From positions 1 to 16,099 of the IMG/VR virus record IMGVR_UViG_2563366820_000001: a DNA stretch of 16,099 bases; one strand, written 5' to 3'. Shown here one piece after another: positions 3,724 to 16,099 of the stretch; the first letter of the stretch is position 1; each line of letters begins with the position of its first letter. Under the pieces are notes generated by a model. That model saw only the letters and a program-made list of their open reading frames with translations, ran no database searches and was not told the DNA's origin. This DNA comes from a virus (taxonomy: Duplodnaviria > Heunggongvirae > Uroviricota > Caudoviricetes). The translations under genes and the position numbers were made by a program.

Positions 3724-3762
3724 AGCCTTACCCTAGTGATATCTCATGTTTTGTTCGCGTCT

Positions 3763-3841
3763 CACCCTAAGGGTAATCAGACCTCACCCTTAGGGTATTT
3801 TTGTATGCTTTCCCATCAATTTTACTATTACCCTTAGGGTA
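3763..3841 (+). promoter_or_regulatory. Three copies of a palindromic motif ACCCT(A/T)AGGGTA (3763..3776, 3785..3797, 3830..3841) upstream of alpA; candidate operator array
   Basis: Motifs read directly; ACCCTAAGGGT and ACCCTTAGGGT are reverse complements of each other. Confidence 0.5.
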
Positions 3842-3943
3842 AAAATATTCCCGATTACCATTAGGCATGAGGGTATGAAAATATTCGTTATTTCTGTGCC
3901 ATGATTACCTCGTCAAATTGAGTAGACGTTATGAGGTAAATAT

Positions 3944-4141
3944 ATGTCAAATACGCTTATTCGTTTAACGGAAGTTCAGCGTAGAACTGGATATAGCAAG
4001 GCATGGATTTATCGCCTTATGGGGCAAGGTAAATTTCCTGCATCAGTTAAAATTGGCTCGCGAGCGATTGCTTTCGTTGAGAGTGAAATTGACGAGTGGA
4101 TTAATCAGCGTATTGCGGAATCACGCGGAACAGCTACCTGA
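3944..4141 (+). CDS. alpA: AlpA-family phage transcriptional regulator / excisionase-like HTH protein
   Basis: 65-aa product MSNTLIRLTEVQRRTGYSKAWIYRLMGQGKFPASVKIGSRAIAFVESEIDEWINQR matches the AlpA pattern (L+EV...G.S+..IY.L...G.FP..VK.G.R...F.E.EI.EWI). Confidence 0.8.
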   Translation: MSNTLIRLTEVQRRTGYSKAWIYRLMGQGKFPASVKIGSRAIAFVESEIDEWINQRIAESRGTAT

Positions 4142-4219
4142 TTAAATGGCTACGGGGCCAGAAGTCCCAGCTATCCACCAGCAAATAAAAAGTAACTTAA
4201 TTCGATAGCAGGAGTTTTT

Positions 4220-5020
4220 ATGAAACTGCGAAAAACGCCCGTACAGGGGCAGGGATTCGTTCGGCCTGAAAACCAGAGCCAACAAAATTTCGGCGAAATT
4301 ATCCCGGTTATTTCCGGCGTTATTGGCGGGCGTGAAACCAATATTGTTAGCGCCAGAGCGTTGCATAAGGCGCTGGGTGTGAAGCGTGATTTCACAACCT
4401 GGATTAAAGGACGCATTGATGAGTACGGATTTAAAAAGGGCGTGGATTTTGAATTCGTAGAAAATTTGACCTCCCCCAATCCGGTGAGCGCAAAATCTCG
4501 CCAACGTGTAGAGCACGACTACCTGAGCACTATCAACATGGCGAAAGAACTGGCGATGGTCGAACGCACCGAACAGGGCCGCGCCGTTCGTCAGTACTTC
4601 ATCAAATGCGAGGAAGAGCTACACAAGGTTGCGCCTGTACGTTCCGCAGCGTTACGCCGGGAACTGAAAGCCCGTATCACAGTTGCCAGCTACTTTAAGC
4701 CAATGTGTGCCGCGCTGGAGGCGTACCGGGCTGAACTGGGTAAAAACACGCTCCAGCACCATTACACCACGGAAGCCAATATGCTGGCGCGTATCGTGCT
4801 GGGTGGCATGACTGCAAAACAGTGGGCGCAGGCGAACGGCATTACAGGCGAACCACGCGACCACATGAGCACGTTGCAGCTTGAGCACCTTTCTTACCTT
4901 GAGCAGAGCAATATCACGCTGATTGAGTTAGGCCAGGACTACCACCAGCGGAAGGCTGAATTAATTCGTCTTTCGCAGCGTTGGTTAGCCCGTCGCATGG
5001 AGGAAAACAGCCATGTGTAA
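4220..5020 (+). CDS. Phage antirepressor-like protein (AntA/AntB-type N-terminal domain)
   Basis: 266-aa ORF with AGGAG SD; segment ARALHKALGVKRDFTTWIKGRIDEYGFKKGVDFEF resembles the AntA/AntB antirepressor domain signature; called by eye, not by search. Confidence 0.55.
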   Translation: MKLRKTPVQGQGFVRPENQSQQNFGEIIPVISGVIGGRETNIVSARALHKALGVKRDFTTWIKGRIDEYGFKKGVDFEFVENLTSPNPVSAKSRQRVEHDYLSTINMAKELAMVERTEQGRAVRQYFIKCEEELHKVAPVRSAALRRELKARITVASYFKPMCAALEAYRAELGKNTLQHHYTTEANMLARIVLGGMTAKQWAQANGITGEPRDHMSTLQLEHLSYLEQSNITLIELGQDYHQRKAELIRLSQRWLARRMEENSHV

Positions 5021-5275
5021 CGCTCTGACCGTTACAAAAAGAGAAAGCGCCCCGTTGCCGGAGCGCCTTTGTGAACGAATTACCTGTAGCACCATATTGC
5101 TTACTGTCTACGAGGCAGATTATAGCGTTGTGGTCGCACAGAGTGAAGGCGCTGATCACCGTTACTACAGCACACCAGAAATGCGGAATATTTTGCTGCA
5201 AAATGTCGTTGGCCACGCTGTCCGGAAAGCAAAAAATTTTGCTGGTGGCGCGACTGATGCGATTTTTTCTGGGCG

Positions 5276-5449
5276 TCAGCCTTTTGGCTCGATACCGCGC
5301 TGTTGTAATTCTTTGCGGAGTATTCGTTTAATCCAAGTAGCTAATGAGGTGTCGCCGTCTGCCTTGGCTGCCTCCTCAAGTTGCGCTCTAAATTCTTCTG
5401 GTAGTCGCATTTGGTATGGTGGTGATCGTTTCTCTAATGGTGTTGACAT
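5276..5449 (-). CDS. Arc/MetJ-type ribbon-helix-helix DNA-binding protein (57 aa), not in the ORF track
   Basis: Minus-strand translation verified codon by codon: MSTPLEKRSPPYQMRLPEEFRAQLEEAAKADGDTSLATWIKRILRKELQQRGIEPKG; MRLPEEF...SLATWIKRIL is the Arc-like beta-strand/helix signature; SD-like AGGGG upstream; divergent from the + strand operon. Confidence 0.6.
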   Translation of the reverse strand: MSTPLEKRSPPYQMRLPEEFRAQLEEAAKADGDTSLATWIKRILRKELQQRGIEPKG

Positions 5450-5489
5450 GGTAATTACCCCTAATTACTATAGTTACATGGTAATTACC
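5446..5489 (+). promoter_or_regulatory. Two copies of ACATGGTAATTACC (5446..5459, 5476..5489) containing the perfect palindrome GGTAATTACC, 30 bp apart, in the divergent intergenic region; candidate operators for the Arc-like repressor
   Basis: Exact 14-nt repeats read from sequence; the first overlaps the Arc-like start codon. Confidence 0.5.
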
Positions 5490-5585
5490 ATTGTACTTAC
5501 CATTACGCAAAAAACAACGCCCCGCAGTGCTGGAACACATGCAGGGCGTCTAACCACCAACGATAGCAGAAGTATCGAGGTAGCT

Positions 5586-5789
5586 ATGAGAAATCATACC
5601 ACACACCCGCAAGGGCGGGACTCGCACAACCTGAATAAATACATCTGGCGTTTTATCGCCCTGAGCACGGCACAACCGCGCGTAATTCACATCGAGGCCA
5701 CCAGCGAACAGGAAGCCCGCCAGCAATCCCCGGCTGGCTGCGTGATGGTATTCGCTGCCCGTATTCGCCAGGAGGTGCACCATGCATAA
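5586..5789 (+). CDS. Hypothetical small protein (67 aa), first gene of the replication-module operon
   Basis: ATG at 5586 preceded by GAGG; in frame with the C-terminal part of the spurious 5013..5789 track ORF; stop overlaps the next start (ATGCATAA). Confidence 0.45.
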   Translation: MRNHTTHPQGRDSHNLNKYIWRFIALSTAQPRVIHIEATSEQEARQQSPAGCVMVFAARIRQEVHHA

Positions 5790-6147
5790 CCTGTCAATTT
5801 CTGACCTTAACAGCATTCAGTTTGACGAGAAATTTACCGGGCAGCTACTGGTCAATGTGGAGAACGGGCGCATAGTGCGTAATTACCACCTGCCGGATGG
5901 TGCAATTGCCGGAAGCGTTGAAGCATTGCTGGAAATGGCGGAACGTGCGCGACTGATTAAGCCGTCAACGTGCCATCACGATGATGATCTGCATTTTACC
6001 GGACGCATGGTGAGTCACTACGAAAACGGCGTTGAAGTATCCCGCGAACGGCTGCGTGATGATTGCTGTTTCGGCACACTGCCGGAATTTATCGAATTGC
6101 TGACCAGTTGCGGTTACCAGGTCATTCAGGGGGTGCATCATGGGTAA
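5782..6147 (+). CDS. Hypothetical protein (121 aa) with two internal copies of an FTG...NG... module
   Basis: Translationally coupled on both sides; internal repeat FTGQLLVNVENGRIV / FTGRMVSHYENGVEV. Confidence 0.55.
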   Translation: MHNLSISDLNSIQFDEKFTGQLLVNVENGRIVRNYHLPDGAIAGSVEALLEMAERARLIKPSTCHHDDDLHFTGRMVSHYENGVEVSRERLRDDCCFGTLPEFIELLTSCGYQVIQGVHHG

Positions 6148-6340
6148 TCAGCCAGCAACAATGACAATTACCCTGAATGTGCCAGATGATTTCACCGGAC
6201 GCGTACTGGTTTACCTGGATAAAGGGAACGTGAAATCACAATGCCGACTGCGAAATAATGAAATTGTAAGTACGGTAGAAGGCTTTTCTGAACTCTGTAT
6301 TCGTGCAGGAATAAAACCGGAACTGCTGACAGGAAAATAA
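6140..6340 (+). CDS. Hypothetical protein (66 aa), paralogous to the module in the upstream ORF
   Basis: FTGRVLVYLDKGNVKSQCRL...TVEGFSELCIRAGIKP aligns with FTGQLLVNVENGRIVRNYHL...SVEALLEMAERARLIKP of the upstream product; start overlaps the upstream stop. Confidence 0.5.
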   Translation: MGNQPATMTITLNVPDDFTGRVLVYLDKGNVKSQCRLRNNEIVSTVEGFSELCIRAGIKPELLTGK

Positions 6341-6344
6341 AACC

Positions 6345-6659
6345 ATGAAAAAGAAAAATTCTGGCTTTACTGCCAGCGGTCTCTCTCGGCCTGAAATTCG
6401 CCCCGGCGATATTTTCCGGGATAAATACGGCAGTCAGATAACGGTAAAAACGGTGAGTGCTTATCGTGTGACCTATATCCGCGAAGGGTATGCGCATCCC
6501 TGCGTGTCGTCACATATGCGCTTTGAAAGGGAATTCATCCTTGTAAGTAAAGCGCCACCAGCAGAATTAAGCGACATCGACAAAATCATGAGCGTCACGG
6601 GCGCGGAACGCATCAGGACAGTACGTGAAATTATTCGTGAGCGGGGAGGTAAGAAGTGA
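6345..6659 (+). CDS. Hypothetical protein (104 aa)
   Basis: ORF with ATG 4 nt after the previous stop; stop overlaps the primase GTG start (GTGA). Confidence 0.5.
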   Translation: MKKKNSGFTASGLSRPEIRPGDIFRDKYGSQITVKTVSAYRVTYIREGYAHPCVSSHMRFEREFILVSKAPPAELSDIDKIMSVTGAERIRTVREIIRERGGKK

Positions 6660-13464: not shown

Positions 13465-14046
13465 ATGAGTTTTTTTAGTCTTTATGGGAAAGAACTATTT
13501 TCTTTTTTTATAGCGATATTAACATGGATACTGAATAACAGATTTAAAAGCAAGGCAAAGTTATCCTATGGTTATCAGCATGGATTTACTTTTCTTCTCA
13601 ATGAACCCTTACGGAATGCCAATGGTGAGATAATATCTAATTCACAGTTGGTGTATACACGATCTATTATTCTTGTTAATGAAGGGCGAGAAAGTGCTAC
13701 TAATATATCATTGGTTTTTAACTATAAGCCAATGCATATTAATTTTTGGCCTGTCCACCATTTTGAAGAAAATATTGAGCAGGATGGTCGCTATATTATC
13801 AAGTTTGAAAGTCTTGCACCTGGTGAGTCTATTCAATGTGAAATGTTATCAATAAATAGAGAAGTTCCAAGTATTCTATCGATAAGATCTAAAGAGTGTG
13901 TGGCTGAGCCAGTGAATATCGTAATGCAAAAATCGATTAGTAATATTGCCCTACGTTGCTATCAATTATTAATACTTCTTGGAACTGGTACATTAACATA
14001 TTTAATTATCGTTATTCTGCAATGGTTAGTCACTAAAACGGGATAA
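13465..14046 (+). CDS. Hypothetical membrane protein (193 aa) with one N-terminal and one C-terminal predicted TM helix; AT-rich cargo gene
   Basis: SD GAAGGAAG 6 nt upstream of ATG 13465 (track start is GTG 13462); hydrophobic segments FSFFIAILTWILNN and LLILLGTGTLTYLIIVILQWLV; AT-rich codon usage unlike the backbone. Confidence 0.6.
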   Translation: MSFFSLYGKELFSFFIAILTWILNNRFKSKAKLSYGYQHGFTFLLNEPLRNANGEIISNSQLVYTRSIILVNEGRESATNISLVFNYKPMHINFWPVHHFEENIEQDGRYIIKFESLAPGESIQCEMLSINREVPSILSIRSKECVAEPVNIVMQKSISNIALRCYQLLILLGTGTLTYLIIVILQWLVTKTG

Positions 14047-14074
14047 TCCATTGTATTGAACTTATTAATTGGAT

Positions 14075-14275
14075 ATGAGTGCTGATAGGAAAGCTATGAC
14101 CATCACCGAAGCCGATTTGCTGGAGATGATCCGCAGCATTGCCGGAATCAAACAACCAGCAAGCAAAATTAACAGGTGTTCAGCGCCTGTTTCCGTTGTG
14201 CTGCAACAGGAACGCCACCAGCAGGATGATGTGAGGCCGTATCAGTGGAAGAAACCGGACAGGCCGCGACGGTGA
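14075..14275 (+). CDS. Short ORF (66 aa from ATG 14075; track uses TTG 14069), possibly a gene remnant
   Basis: GC-richer island between two AT-rich genes; no SD; translation is protein-like (MTITEADLLEMIRSIAGIKQPA) but unassignable. Confidence 0.25.
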   Translation: MSADRKAMTITEADLLEMIRSIAGIKQPASKINRCSAPVSVVLQQERHQQDDVRPYQWKKPDRPRR

Positions 14276-14606
14276 GCGGAGCGTTACGGTAAGGCTACAG
14301 CCAAGCCAAACATTAAGCCTAAGGGTAAGGTTTTTTGTTGCAGGTGGCATTAATTTGGATGTTGATTTAAGGAGCATTTTTACTGAGACGGCCTGTTCGG
14401 GGTAACTTTTTTGTATGCCATTCACTTGTATGAGAGCTGTACTACGAAATAGGTTGGCATGGTGGGGAGAGCATTCTGTACTGTTATTGAATAACACTAT
14501 CGTTTTTTATTCCTTTTGGTTATTAAGTGGTGTGCGTTAAGACATGGTTTTCTTTATGTTTTTCATGTATATATTGCTTTTTAACTCAATAAGGAAACAC
14601 TGATAA

Positions 14607-15500
14607 ATGGCAAGACCAAAAAAATTAACTTATGGGGCGGTGAATATAACAATGCATCCCCACTCGCCAGAAAAATATGTAGAATTGTTCAGAATGGCAA
14701 GAAAAAACGCGAGAAATGTTAATTTGAGGGGGGACTCTTTCGCGACTTTATCACACTTTTATCCTTACAGGAAAGATCAGGTAGTTAGTGAACCTTTTGA
14801 AGGGGAAATTCTAAAGTATACAGATATTGATGTTGATGGAGATTGGTTCGATATTGTAAAGAAAGACATTGCCTCAGATGAGCAAAAGGAAAGGATAAGT
14901 ATACCTGAGAATTTAAAACCAAATGTGGCTCGATTCTCTTTTGTTTTTCTACCTGCCAGCCATCTTTTAGTTTATGAGATGCAGGACAAAGGTCGGCATC
15001 TTACATCAAAACAAATAGAAAATTTTCTGAATGGAATATTTTCTCATGAGAGAATTATAGAGAAGTTTGGGAAGATTAATGTTACAATATTAACCGAGCC
15101 AGATAACGTAGAACGTATGCTTTCTTTAAAAGGCATTACGTGTATAAATATGGTTACTCGACGTCCTAACCCAGATGATCTCGCTTCTGCAGAAAGTATT
15201 ATGCAAAAGCGTTTCAAACGTATTGGCGTTATTGAAGAAGATAAAACATATAAATCTGAGCGTGGTCAGGAAATTAAACCTGATAGTGAGTTAAAGCAGG
15301 ATGCTCTTATTGCTTCGAGAAATGGCGAAGTTAGCATACGTAGGATTAATGAGGCGGGATTAGTTGAGGTTCATGCCTCAAGCGATTTACCACTTCAAAG
15401 GGTTGAATCATATGATTCTGACGTAACATCAGTTACTGAGCTATTGTTATTAAGAGCAAAATCTTTAGCAGATGAGTTTAAGAGGCTTCTGAGAAAGTAA
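14607..15500 (+). CDS. Hypothetical soluble protein (297 aa), first gene of a translationally coupled two-gene cargo cassette; candidate defense component
   Basis: ATG with AAGGAAA SD; AT-rich; no Walker A, HTH or other motif I can recognise; acidic cluster YTDIDVDGDWFDIVKKD; stop overlaps the next start (TAATG). Confidence 0.75.
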   Translation: MARPKKLTYGAVNITMHPHSPEKYVELFRMARKNARNVNLRGDSFATLSHFYPYRKDQVVSEPFEGEILKYTDIDVDGDWFDIVKKDIASDEQKERISIPENLKPNVARFSFVFLPASHLLVYEMQDKGRHLTSKQIENFLNGIFSHERIIEKFGKINVTILTEPDNVERMLSLKGITCINMVTRRPNPDDLASAESIMQKRFKRIGVIEEDKTYKSERGQEIKPDSELKQDALIASRNGEVSIRRINEAGLVEVHASSDLPLQRVESYDSDVTSVTELLLLRAKSLADEFKRLLRK

Positions 15501-16099
15501 TGAGTAAAGTAAAAGAATCAACCAGTGCAATGGCTAGATACTGGAAGATCTATGGTGGCGCTGGGGCTGTATTTAAAAGTCGCTATTTTTGGTGTGCTTT
15601 TTTTATGACAGTGATTCTTTATCCATCTTGGTCTCATCAGGGGTGGTGGAATGATATTCTGTCGTTAATGCCGAACCTTTTGGGTTTTTCACTGGGTGGT
15701 TTTGCTATGTGGATTGCTATTGGAGATGAGGCTTTCAAAAAAATAATAACTGGAGATGAAGAAAGTGAAAATGGAGAGGTAGAATATTCTCCTTATATGT
15801 CTGTGAATGCAACCTTTGTTCATTTTATATTATTGCAGTTGTTAACTATAATAATGGCCTTGGTCACCAAGGCCTATAGTAGCATTCTCATAAATAACGC
15901 TTTTATGTATTATTATTTAGGTGTTGCTTACAGGTATGTACTGTTAACATTCAGCTTCTTTGCATACTTTATATTTATTTACTCAGTATTCTCTGCGTTA
16001 GCTGCCGTTTTTGCTATATTTCGTGTTTCTAGTTGGTATAATACTTTTATGACCTTACGAAACAAACAAGATAACGCTAAAAATAATAAGGAGGAATAA
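15500..16099 (+). CDS. Hypothetical integral membrane protein (199 aa, about 4 predicted TM helices); candidate membrane effector
   Basis: Hydrophobic segments YFWCAFFMTVILYPSW, LLGFSLGGFAMWIAIG, FVHFILLQLLTIIMALV, YVLLTFSFFAYFIFIYSVFSALAAVFAIF; ATG overlaps the upstream stop; TAA at 16097..16099 is the last codon of the window. Confidence 0.75.
   Translation: MSKVKESTSAMARYWKIYGGAGAVFKSRYFWCAFFMTVILYPSWSHQGWWNDILSLMPNLLGFSLGGFAMWIAIGDEAFKKIITGDEESENGEVEYSPYMSVNATFVHFILLQLLTIIMALVTKAYSSILINNAFMYYYLGVAYRYVLLTFSFFAYFIFIYSVFSALAAVFAIFRVSSWYNTFMTLRNKQDNAKNNKEE

What the first reader, a model, noticed from the sequence alone, without database searches (positions are those of the whole stretch)
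14069..14335. GC-rich ORF remnant and recurrence of the CCTAAGGGTAA / TTAAG-n-TAAGG-TTTTT motif inside the cargo block
A short GC-richer segment with a protein-like but start-less frame sits between two AT-rich genes, suggesting a recombination scar. Just downstream, the 11-mer CCTAAGGGTAA (14318..14328) exactly matches the core of the alpA-upstream operator (3766..3776). The surrounding TTAAGCCTAAGGGTAAGGTTTTT resembles the TTAAG-n5-TAAGG-TTTTT units at 13250..13364. This may wire cargo expression to the island's induction regulators.
Basis: seen in the sequence. Interest (0 to 1): 0.45.

Follow-up and report, generated by a model that had tools for sequence, protein, structure and literature searches.

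The report
Conserved small gene with terminator hairpin
The GC-rich patch is an intact, conserved 59-codon gene ending the core of a phage satellite island, and the supposed operator copy is the loop of its terminator-like hairpin, which most likely resembles the alpA operator by chance.

Summary
The sequence facts hold. 14096-14347 is 53% GC between AT-rich genes (34-36% GC), and CCTAAGGGTAA occurs at both 3766 and 14318. The interpretation mostly fails.

- **The ORF is not start-less.** It has an ATG at 14096 and a ribosome-binding site. RefSeq annotates it as a hypothetical protein.
- **It is core, not cargo.** It is the last conserved core gene of an AlpA/primase-type PICI satellite at tRNA-Thr. 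It is a short allele of a 94-97-aa family that follows the packaging module in many enterobacterial satellites.
- **The AT-rich flanks are the acquired parts.** One is a 728-bp insert carrying a 194-aa membrane-protein gene. The other is a DUF4747 + membrane-protein cassette.
- **The 11-mer is a hairpin loop.** It covers the loop and inner stem of a 6-bp hairpin followed by a U-tract, 40 nt after the stop codon. Related islands keep the stem, changing it only to G·U wobble pairs, but vary the loop (CCTACGGGCAA, CCTACGGGTCA, TCTACAGGTAA).
- **No link to alpA.** The window's hairpin allele travels with the DUF4747 cassette whatever the alpA module. Islands with the same alpA operators carry other hairpin alleles or none.

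Wiring of cargo to AlpA is therefore not supported. This is an ordinary feature of low interest.

The parts
13056..13367 (.). Conserved repeat array between the HTH/TerS-like gene and the small ORF. It holds AAAGTGTCAA six times (one copy inverted) and three YTAAG-N5-YTAAGG units at 13249, 13304 and 13349. It is probably a packaging-site protein-binding array (inferred).
   Evidence: The array is highly conserved in 21 distinct islands, with loss or gain of whole repeat units. The lambda cosN sequence is absent.
13368..14095 (+). A 728-bp AT-rich insert (33.9% GC) carrying a 194-aa predicted membrane-protein gene (13462-14046). It replaces the 5 nt 'AAATC' that otherwise join the array to the ATG.
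   Evidence: The insert is present in the window, L001, L008, L009 and L014. It is absent in L002, L003, L004, L007 and L011-L013. No Pfam, NCBIfam, PHROG or PADLOC hit.
14096..14275 (+). Intact 59-aa ORF with its ribosome-binding site (AGGAAAG) at 14087-14093. It is the short allele of a 94-97-aa satellite protein family. It shares the N-terminus MTITEADxLEMIRSIAGI and the C-terminus YxWKKPxRxRR.
   Evidence: (phrog_1561 and phrog_7271). pN/pS is 0.3-0.6. Annotated as a hypothetical protein in RefSeq.
14215..14222 (-). Chi octamer (GCTGGTGG on the minus strand) inside the ORF. It is conserved in most short-form alleles.
14276..14314 (+). Conserved 3' untranslated stretch between the stop codon and the hairpin.
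14315..14336 (+). Terminator-like hairpin. The 5' arm AAGCCT is at 14315-14320, the loop AAGGGTA at 14321-14327, and the 3' arm AGGTTT at 14328-14333. The T6 run is at 14331-14336.
   Evidence: -8.9 to -9.9 kcal/mol; 95.8% of cells are paired in 8 variants, with wobble-only changes. The hairpin is too weak for the terminator scan's threshold.
14340..14347 (+). Chi-like octamer GCAGGTGG. It is a perfect Chi (GCTGGTGG) at the equivalent place in L003, L008/L015-L017 and L030, and a Chi also lies shortly after the ORF in L010 and L014. Homology with the L003- and L008-type islands ends about 10-15 nt beyond it.
14348..14420 (+). Linker shared with islands carrying a GmrSD-type cassette (L031). 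It contains the second 11-mer shared with the alpA region (TTTTTGTATGC, about 14405).
14607..16099 (+). Cargo cassette: a DUF4747 protein (14607-15500) followed by a membrane protein (15500 to beyond the window end).
   Evidence: The same cassette lies behind the same hairpin allele in L001, L007, L012 and L013.
3764..3865 (.). alpA-upstream operator array. The palindrome ACCCT-N-AGGGT is at 3764, 3786 and 3830, with a degenerate copy at 3855. alpA is at 3944-4141.
   Evidence: The array co-occurs with one AlpA allele (WP_000072422-type) in L004, L005, L011, L012, L079 and L080.

Best explanation
14096-14347 is the last conserved core block of an AlpA/primase-type phage-inducible chromosomal island (PICI) integrated at tRNA-Thr.

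**What it contains.** It encodes an intact 59-aa protein. This is a short allele of a 94-97-aa, mostly helical, basic-tailed family that sits directly after the packaging module in many enterobacterial satellites. About 70 nt of conserved non-coding sequence follows, ending in a short hairpin plus U-tract and a Chi-like octamer.

**Proposed role (inferred).** The hairpin ends the island's rightward transcription unit and separates it from the variable cargo, which has its own AT-rich upstream region. Cargo cassettes are exchanged by homologous recombination, using this conserved block as one homology arm. That would explain the ladder of breakpoints at 14224, 14271-14275, 14328, 14339-14340, 14347 and about 14420.

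**The 11-mer.** CCTAAGGGTAA is the loop and inner stem of this hairpin in the allele linked to the DUF4747 cassette. Its match to the alpA operator rests on the loop base A14322, which is C in most alleles. It is best read as coincidence.

**Shown:** gene integrity, position, conservation, hairpin conservation, and the lack of covariation with alpA operators.

**Inferred:** terminator activity, the recombination mechanism, and any function of the protein. My low-confidence guess for the protein is a packaging-module accessory factor.
For: - **Island identity.** proA, tRNA-Thr, integrase, AlpA, AntA, D5_N/DUF5906 primase, ProQ/FinO, PerC, DUF2213 and an HTH/TerS-like protein. An experimentally studied PICI, EcCIMP1, lies between the same flanking genes, proA and yagU (PMC11773190).
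- **Position in other islands.** In L002, L003, L004, L007 and L011-L013 the ATG directly follows the repeat array. Different cargo follows the ORF or hairpin: DUF4747+TM, GapS1, an RNA-binding-domain protein, orc1/cdc6, Panacea, DUF3800, GmrSD/HEPN, or nothing.
- **Shared block.** 14096 to about 14328-14347 is shared by 88-128 of 5,426 E. coli genomes, with differing flanks.
- **Protein family.** The long form has 972 clusters and sits after Nu1-like TerS or TerL genes of capsid-encoding satellites.
- **Hairpin.** All variants fold the same way. Stem changes are GC to GU, CG to UG and UA to UG only, while the loop varies.
- **Independent hairpins.** Other junction types carry different, stronger hairpin + U-tract elements at the same place, at -13.6 to -18.5 kcal/mol.
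- **No covariation.**
- **Known context.** Immune or accessory regions at the 3' end of PICIs are already described (PMC11364771).
Against: - The hairpin is weak, with 2 G-C, 1 G-U and 3 A-U pairs. It did not pass the terminator scan, and its energy is only marginally below shuffles (z -0.17 to -2.1).
- There are no compensatory double changes, so the structure is not proven.
- The hairpin block also persists about 490-650 bp away from the ORF in L008, L031 and L006. It may therefore be more than a simple 3'UTR terminator.
- The chance estimate for the 11-mer (p of about 0.03) is not large. A 14/16 match to operator 2 including its flank exists on the minus strand.
- The protein has no assignable function. 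The AF2 model has pLDDT 59.5.
Confidence: 0.75

Rival explanations
1. In this lineage the site AGCCTAAGGGT (14316-14326) is a working binding site for the protein that recognises the alpA-upstream palindromes. That protein would be AlpA itself or a helper-phage factor. The site would couple expression of the DUF4747 cassette to island induction.
For: - Exact 11-mer, and a 10/11 match to the palindrome.
- 14/16 identity to operator 2 plus its flank on the minus strand, and a second shared 11-mer 87 bp away. The overall similarity scores p of about 0.03.
- The window, L012, L079 and L080 have both the operators and this allele.
- AlpA is a positive autoregulator in related PICIs (PMC11773190).
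Against: - The same allele is present with unrelated alpA regions in L001, L013 and L078.
- The operator/AlpA allele is present with other hairpin alleles or none in L011, L004/L006 and L005.
- It is a single copy with one imperfect half-site, against arrays of 3-4 at alpA.
- It lies about 280 bp upstream of the DUF4747 ATG, inside a hairpin immediately before a U-tract.
- No sigma-70-like promoter was called on the + strand between 14330 and 14606.
Confidence: 0.1
2. The TTAAGCCTAAGGGTAAGGTTTTT stretch is a degenerate extra unit of the YTAAG-N5-YTAAGG packaging-array repeats. It would be bound by the same protein, extending the packaging site across the small ORF.
For: - TAAGGTTTTTTGT (14326) matches TAAGGTTTTTCGT (13260) at 12 of 13 positions (D14).
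- There are three TAAGG in 55 nt of the 3'UTR in this allele.
- In islands without the 728-bp insert, the two regions lie only about 220 bp apart.
Against: - The spacer is 8 nt, not 5.
- The array units are largely conserved across 21 islands. The 3'UTR has only 0-1 TAAGG in L003, L009, L011, L018 and L002.
- Stem substitutions are of the wobble-preserving type expected of RNA, not of a DNA site.
Confidence: 0.05
3. The conserved roughly 50-nt element (CAAGCCAAACATTAAGCC...U-tract...GCTGGTGG) is a functional unit in its own right. One option is the 3' end of a small RNA or 3'UTR recognised by the island's ProQ/FinO-domain protein. The other is a hairpin + Chi recombination joint that promotes RecBCD-dependent swapping of cargo cassettes.
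For: - The element persists when separated from the ORF by 490-650 bp (L008, L031, L006).
- A perfect Chi follows the U-tract in L003, L008-type and L030, and lies shortly after the ORF in L010 and L014. Homology with the L003- and L008-type islands ends just beyond it.
- The island encodes a ProQ/FinO protein.
- Chi is about 20-fold over-represented in the island core.
Against: - No Rfam family matches.
- Chi is degenerate here (GCAGGTGG) and in L009, L011 and L018. It is absent after the long-form ORFs of other satellite types.
- Chi is so common in these islands (about 1 per kb) that one at any given place is unremarkable.
- Breakpoints form a ladder rather than falling at one point.
Confidence: 0.1

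Closest known systems
Gram-negative AlpA-type PICIs (EcCICFT073, EcCIMP1) with accessory or immune regions at their 3' end
   Same: - Integrase next to a tRNA, AlpA master regulator, primase, PerC, a packaging-related HTH gene, and variable defence-like cargo at the 3' end.
- EcCIMP1 lies between the same flanking genes, proA and yagU (PMC11773190). 3' immune regions are described in PMC11364771.
   Different: - The 174-aa HTH protein shows no sequence match to the solved RppC, and no lambda-like cosN is present. The packaging chemistry may therefore differ from the Rpp/cos system of EcCICFT073 (PMC6739421).
- In the passages I searched in four PICI papers, no small ORF or hairpin was mentioned.
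Rho-independent (intrinsic) transcription terminators
   Same: A hairpin with a 7-nt loop followed at once by a T6 run. An A-rich stretch upstream can pair with the U-tract. It sits 40 nt after a stop codon, and pairing is preserved in relatives.
   Different: The stem is short and GC-poor (6 bp, 2 G-C). It falls below the scan threshold, and its activity is untested.
Hotspots of antiviral systems in P4-like satellites (Rousset et al. 2022, as cited in PMC11364771)
   Same: Conserved flanking core genes bracket a slot where unrelated defence cassettes alternate between otherwise similar satellites.
   Different: This is a different satellite family (PICI, not P4). Here the left flank is a small ORF plus hairpin rather than psu/int-type genes.
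Prophage-encoded DUF4747 + membrane-protein defence pairs (mycobacteriophage Sbash, Gordonia phage CarolAnn)
   Same: The downstream cargo is a DUF4747 protein followed by a membrane protein. Papers describing such defence systems mention DUF4747 (PMC6426596 and PMC6426606).
   Different: I saw only the family name. I did not compare the sequences with those phage proteins, and PADLOC has no model that matches.

Membership tests
alpA-upstream operator set (ACCCT-N-AGGGT palindromes) | Both half-sites ACCCT and AGGGT are present | tested here: not met
   14316-14326 reads AGCCTAAGGGT. The left half-site has a C-to-G change.
alpA-upstream operator set (ACCCT-N-AGGGT palindromes) | Occurs as an array of 3-4 copies within about 100 bp upstream of the regulated gene | tested here: not met
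   There is a single copy, 280 bp upstream of the DUF4747 ATG.
alpA-upstream operator set (ACCCT-N-AGGGT palindromes) | Co-occurs with the cognate AlpA allele across related islands | tested here: not met
   The allele is present without the operators or AlpA allele in L001, L013 and L078. It is absent or different with them in L005, L011 and L004/L006.
alpA-upstream operator set (ACCCT-N-AGGGT palindromes) | Bound by the regulator | not testable with these tools
   Needs EMSA or ChIP.
Intrinsic terminator | Stable G+C-rich stem of at least 5 bp | tested here: inconclusive
   The stem is 6 bp but has only 2 G-C pairs. Energy is -8.9 to -9.9 kcal/mol, z -0.2 to -2.1. It was not called by the scan.
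Intrinsic terminator | Loop of 3-8 nt and a U-tract directly after the stem | tested here: met
   The loop is 7 nt, and the T6 run is at 14331-14336.
Intrinsic terminator | Lies at the 3' end of a gene on the coding strand, with pairing kept in relatives | tested here: met
   It starts 40 nt after the stop codon. 95.8% of cells are paired in 8 variants, with wobble-only changes. Other junction types have different hairpin + U-tract elements at the same place.
Intrinsic terminator | Terminates transcription | not testable with these tools
   Needs Term-seq or 3' RACE.
Gram-negative PICI | Integrase at a specific att site, an AlpA regulator, a primase/replication gene, no structural or lysis genes, and a size of about 10-15 kb | tested here: met
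   Full relatives span about 13-15 kb between tRNA-Thr and host genes. attR lies outside the window.
Gram-negative PICI | Induction and packaging by a helper phage | not testable with these tools
   Requires experiments.
94-97-aa satellite small-protein family (phrog_1561) | N-terminal MTITEADxLEMIRSIAGI and C-terminal YxWKKPxRxRR motifs, and a position directly after the packaging module | tested here: met
94-97-aa satellite small-protein family (phrog_1561) | Full-length three-helix architecture | tested here: not met
   The short allele lacks about 35 central residues, covering predicted helix 2 and part of helix 3. The model is low-confidence.
Chi site | Exact 5'-GCTGGTGG-3' | tested here: not met
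   14340-14347 reads GCAGGTGG. An exact Chi is present on the minus strand at 14215-14222.

The most novel reading that the evidence does not exclude
The conserved roughly 250-bp block is a dedicated core-to-cargo joint of this PICI lineage. The block comprises the small ORF with an inward-facing Chi, the hairpin, and a Chi or Chi-like octamer. It would both insulate cargo transcription and focus RecBCD/Chi-stimulated recombination, so that defence cassettes are swapped between islands. The small protein would be a so-far unrecognised universal accessory of satellite packaging modules.
Probability: 0.1. Interest if true: 0.5.

Novelty: new member of a known kind. Interest (0 to 1): 0.2.

Why it matters
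It matters mainly as a correction. A tempting regulatory link between a satellite's master switch and its defence cargo does not survive comparison with related islands.

The useful residue is an anatomical landmark. The small ORF plus hairpin block marks the boundary between the conserved PICI core and the swappable 3' cargo slot in about 90-130 of 5,426 complete E. coli genomes. That could help delimit defence cassettes automatically.

The 94-97-aa family to which the ORF belongs is widespread, always adjacent to satellite packaging genes, and entirely uncharacterised.

Tried and rejected
- **Rfam, 12900-14700 at E up to 1.** No match.
- **Pfam, NCBIfam, PADLOC.** Nothing for the 59-aa and 94-96-aa proteins. 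PHROGs gave only families of unknown function.
- **PDB sequence search with the 174-aa HTH protein.** No RppC or TerS match, even at E = 10. I therefore do not call it Rpp.
- **Lambda cosN search.** Nothing near the repeat array.
- **GTDB species-representative scan with the protein alignment.** One locus only, in Escherichia ruysiae.
- **IMG/VR scan for the operator palindrome TTACCCTWAGGGTAA.** 39 scattered single hits, not examined further. No helper-phage lead came from it.
- **AlphaFold2 of the long form.** pLDDT 59.5, too low for a meaningful fold search, so none was run.
- **Chi-joint idea.** Weakened because long-form ORFs in other satellite types have no plus-strand Chi downstream, and because Chi is abundant throughout these islands.
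- **Extended homology between the alpA promoter and the DUF4747 upstream region.** Only two short matches, with a marginal score.
- **Minus-strand ORF 14180-14497 (105 aa, GTG).** Not annotated in RefSeq relatives, and it overlaps the conserved plus-strand gene. Treated as spurious without further testing.

Full report
**Context**

The window runs from proA (1-1254) and tRNA-Thr(CGT) (1369-1444) into a mobile element. Its genes are:
- a tyrosine integrase (1611-2825) and a 283-aa hypothetical protein;
- AlpA (3944-4141) and an AntA-domain protein;
- a D5_N/DUF5906 primase (6656-8407);
- ProQ/FinO and PerC proteins, and two phrog_6216/DUF2213 pieces;
- a 174-aa protein with an N-terminal HTH that weakly resembles small terminase subunits (12531-13055);
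- three AT-rich genes.

This is the gene set of Gram-negative AlpA-type phage-inducible chromosomal islands (PICIs). An experimentally studied PICI, EcCIMP1, lies between the same flanking genes, proA and yagU. In such islands AlpA is the helper-induced, self-activating master regulator (PMC11773190). Parts of this island family occur in 2,298 of 5,426 complete E. coli genomes. No genome holds more than 80% of the window, so the island is highly mosaic.

**Checking the observation**

- The GC contrast is real. 14096-14347 is 52.8% GC. The flanks are 33.9% (13368-14095) and 34.7-36.1% (14348 onward).
- CCTAAGGGTAA is exact at 3766 (+), 3828 (-) and 14318 (+).
- The alpA upstream region carries three perfect ACCCT-W-AGGGT palindromes (3764, 3786, 3830) and a degenerate fourth.
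- The frame is not start-less. An ATG at 14096 follows AGGAAAG, and the ORF ends at TGA 14273-14275, giving 59 aa. RefSeq annotates exactly this CDS as a hypothetical protein in relatives.
- The TTAAG...TAAGG resemblance exists, but with an 8-nt spacer rather than 5.

**What the GC-rich block is**

Megablast shows that 14096 to about 14328-14347 is shared by 88-128 E. coli genomes whose flanks differ.

In islands at other integration sites, and in thrW islands without the upstream insert, the ATG directly follows the conserved repeat array: '...CCCCTAAGATTTCCTAAGGTGTAAATC|ATG'. These are L002 and L013 at abgR/smrA, L003 at yicC, L004 at tRNA-Gly, and L011 and L012 at thrW. In the window, 728 bp (13368-14095) carrying a 194-aa membrane-protein gene replace the 5 nt 'AAATC'. 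The same insert is in L001, L008, L009 and L014.

The content downstream of the block is different in almost every lineage:
- DUF4747 + membrane protein (window, L001, L007, L012, L013);
- GapS1 (L008);
- an RNA-binding-domain protein (L003);
- orc1/cdc6 (L011);
- a Panacea-domain pair (L006, L030);
- DUF3800 (L018-L027);
- GmrSD/HEPN (L031);
- nothing before the host gene (L002, L009).

So the block is the conserved core, and the AT-rich genes are the acquisitions. This fits the described 3' accessory or immune region of PICIs (PMC11364771).

**The protein**

Its homologues are confined to Escherichia, Shigella, Salmonella and Citrobacter, and all are 'hypothetical'.
- The 59-60-aa form has 23 clusters. 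It is a short allele of a 94-97-aa family with 972 clusters, matching phrog_1561.
- The N-terminus (MTITEADxLEMIRSIAGI) and the C-terminus (YxWKKPxRxRR) are shared. About 35 central residues are missing.
- Long forms sit immediately after Nu1-like TerS or TerL genes of capsid-encoding satellites, again as the last gene before host DNA or cargo.
- pN/pS among short alleles is 0.3-0.6. Some alleles have alternative C-termini created by junctions inside the 3' end.
- AlphaFold2 predicts three helices at low confidence, pLDDT 59.5.

The function is unknown. My guess, by position only, is an accessory factor of the packaging module.

**The 11-mer**

It lies 40 nt after the stop codon, in a hairpin:
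- 5' arm AAGCCT, 14315-14320;
- loop AAGGGTA, 14321-14327;
- 3' arm AGGTTT, 14328-14333;
- T6 run, 14331-14336.

All allelic variants fold the same way. Across eight distinct variants, 95.8% of stem cells pair. The only internal stem changes are G-C to G-U, C-G to U-G and U-A to U-G, while four loop positions vary. This pattern is expected of an RNA hairpin rather than a DNA operator, although without compensatory double changes it is not proof.

The hairpin is weak, at -8.9 to -9.9 kcal/mol, and was not called by the terminator scan. However, other junction types carry different, stronger hairpin + U-tract elements at the same place:
- L008/L031, directly after the stop codon: -18.5 kcal/mol;
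- L028 (L002 and L006 carry a related CCCTTCGAAGG palindrome): -13.9 kcal/mol;
- L093: -13.6 kcal/mol.

This suggests that ending transcription after this ORF is the conserved requirement.

The equivalents of the 11-mer elsewhere are CCTACGGGTAA (L002, L011), CCTACGGGCAA (L003), CCTACGGGTCA (L009), TCTACGGGTAA (L018), TCTACAGGTAA (L031) and CCTACTGGTAA (L030). The operator-like right half-site AGGGT depends on one loop base (A14322), which is C in most alleles.

**Covariation test**

The exact window allele (CCTAAGGGTAAGGTTTTTT) occurs in the window, L001, L007, L012, L013, L078, L079 and L080. Where cargo annotation was available (window, L001, L007, L012, L013), it sits in front of the DUF4747 cassette.
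- Four of these have the ACCCTNAGGGT array and the matching AlpA allele: the window, L012, L079 and L080.
- L001 has a different AlpA allele with CCGCAATTGCGG palindromes.
- L013 has a third alpA module with no such palindromes.
- L078 shows no palindromes and no AlpA of this allele in the 10 kb upstream.
- In L007 the alpA region lies outside the fetched locus, so it could not be scored.

Conversely, among islands with the window-type operator array:
- L011 has CCTACGGGTAAGGC;
- L004/L006 has the long ORF and a divergent copy (CCTAAGGCTAC) 650 bp downstream;
- L005 has neither the ORF nor the hairpin.

The allele tracks the cargo cassette, not the regulator. The motif is rare: among the 38 loci then fetched it occurs only in these two contexts. 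The more direct comparative test goes against wiring.

The statistics are weak. The chance of an operator-core 11-mer recurring in the window is about 0.03. The chance for any 11-mer of the array is about 0.54, and one such irrelevant match exists. The local alignment scores at p of about 0.03.

**The TAAGG resemblance**

The region 13056-13367 is a highly conserved array of AAAGTGTCAA repeats and three YTAAG-N5-YTAAGG units. Whole-unit copy-number changes occur among 21 islands. It is probably the binding array for the adjacent HTH protein, which is an inference. No lambda cosN is present, and the HTH protein shows no sequence match to RppC (PMC6739421).

The 3'UTR has three TAAGG in the window allele, but only 0-1 in L002, L003, L009, L011 and L018. 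The resemblance is therefore allele-specific and not conserved.

**Junction behaviour**

Homology between islands with different cargo ends at several places: 14224, 14271-14275, 14328, 14339-14340, 14347 and, against L031, about 14420. A ladder like this is what homologous recombination within a shared block would give, rather than site-specific insertion.

A plus-strand Chi (GCTGGTGG) directly follows the U-tract in L003, L008-type and L030. It lies just after the ORF in L010 and L014. The window has GCAGGTGG at 14340-14347. A minus-strand Chi lies inside the ORF at 14215.

Chi is, however, about 20-fold over-represented across the whole island core: 10 copies against 0.49 expected. It is degenerate in several alleles and absent after long-form ORFs in other satellites. 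I treat a dedicated Chi joint as a low-probability idea. Chi-rich phages that rely on host recombination are a known category (PMC8791490).

**Verdict**

The feature is an ordinary conserved small gene with a terminator-like hairpin at the core-cargo boundary of a PICI. The motif match is most likely coincidence (confidence 0.75).

Noticed in passing
window 4175-14222 (ten sites); L001-L003: Chi (GCTGGTGG) is strongly over-represented in the island core. There are 10 copies against 0.49 expected from shuffles, and none in proA or the AT-rich cargo. Related islands carry 11-16 copies each in about 11-13 kb, in both orientations. This fits the known class of mobile elements that carry many Chi sites rather than an anti-RecBCD gene.
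   Followed up: partly
window 13056-13367; L007, L009, L015, L030, L008: The AAAGTGTCAA / YTAAG-N5-YTAAGG array after the HTH gene is highly conserved but varies by whole repeat units. L007 and L015 have 55-bp unit deletions, and L009 and L030 have shorter arrays. L008 has a (CAGCTTGC)n expansion between two AAAGTGTCAA copies.
   Followed up: partly
window 13368-14095: A 728-bp AT-rich insert with a 194-aa predicted membrane protein sits exactly between the repeat array and the small ORF's ATG, and supplies a new ribosome-binding site. It is present in some islands (L001, L008, L009, L014) and absent in others. The protein has no family assignment.
   Followed up: partly
window 14607-16099: The cargo is a DUF4747 protein followed by a membrane protein. 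DUF4747 is mentioned in papers on prophage-encoded defence systems of actinobacteriophages (Sbash, CarolAnn, Butters). PADLOC has no model for either protein.
   Followed up: no
window 3724-3946; L001 3560-3717; L002 2128-2497: Each alpA allele has its own upstream repeats. The window-type AlpA has ACCCT-N-AGGGT palindromes with a free central base. L001 has CCGCAATTGCGG palindromes. The L002 type has GAACAA-like direct repeats. This fits allele-specific regulator sites.
   Followed up: partly
L081-L095 (gene at 2001-2285): The 94-aa long form of the small protein is the last gene after Nu1-like TerS or TerL in satellites that encode lambda-like capsid (gpE) and decoration (gpD) proteins. The family therefore spans several satellite types and always adjoins packaging genes.
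   Followed up: partly
window 3797-3807 and about 14405-14415: A second exact 11-mer, TTTTTGTATGC, is shared between the alpA operator region and the DUF4747 upstream region. In both places it is preceded by GGGTA. A near-identical copy (TTTTTGTATGT) is in L031, upstream of a different cargo.
   Followed up: partly
L002 12222-12260; L006 1864-1900; L028; L014: An alternative junction carries a perfect palindrome, CCCTTCGAAGGG (or CCTTCGAAGG), joined to the first half of the hairpin. A conserved stretch follows (GATGATTATCCTTACCCGTTGATAAACAAGC). In L002 about 550 bp separate it from a Chi + GGGCCTGATGCCGATAT segment that is homologous to L003.
   Followed up: no
window 12531-13055: The 174-aa HTH protein next to the repeat array has only a weak N-terminal match to small terminase subunits (phrog_57). 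It has no sequence match to the solved RppC, and no lambda-type cosN is nearby. This island may use a packaging-redirection system different from the published Rpp/cos mechanism.
   Followed up: partly
window 14280-14294 and 14316-14330: A direct repeat, AGCGTTACGGTAAGG / AGCCTAAGGGTAAGG (12 of 15), is spaced 36 nt apart within the 3'UTR. In alleles with the ancestral loop base the two copies read TACGGTAAGG and TACGGGTAAGG.
   Followed up: no
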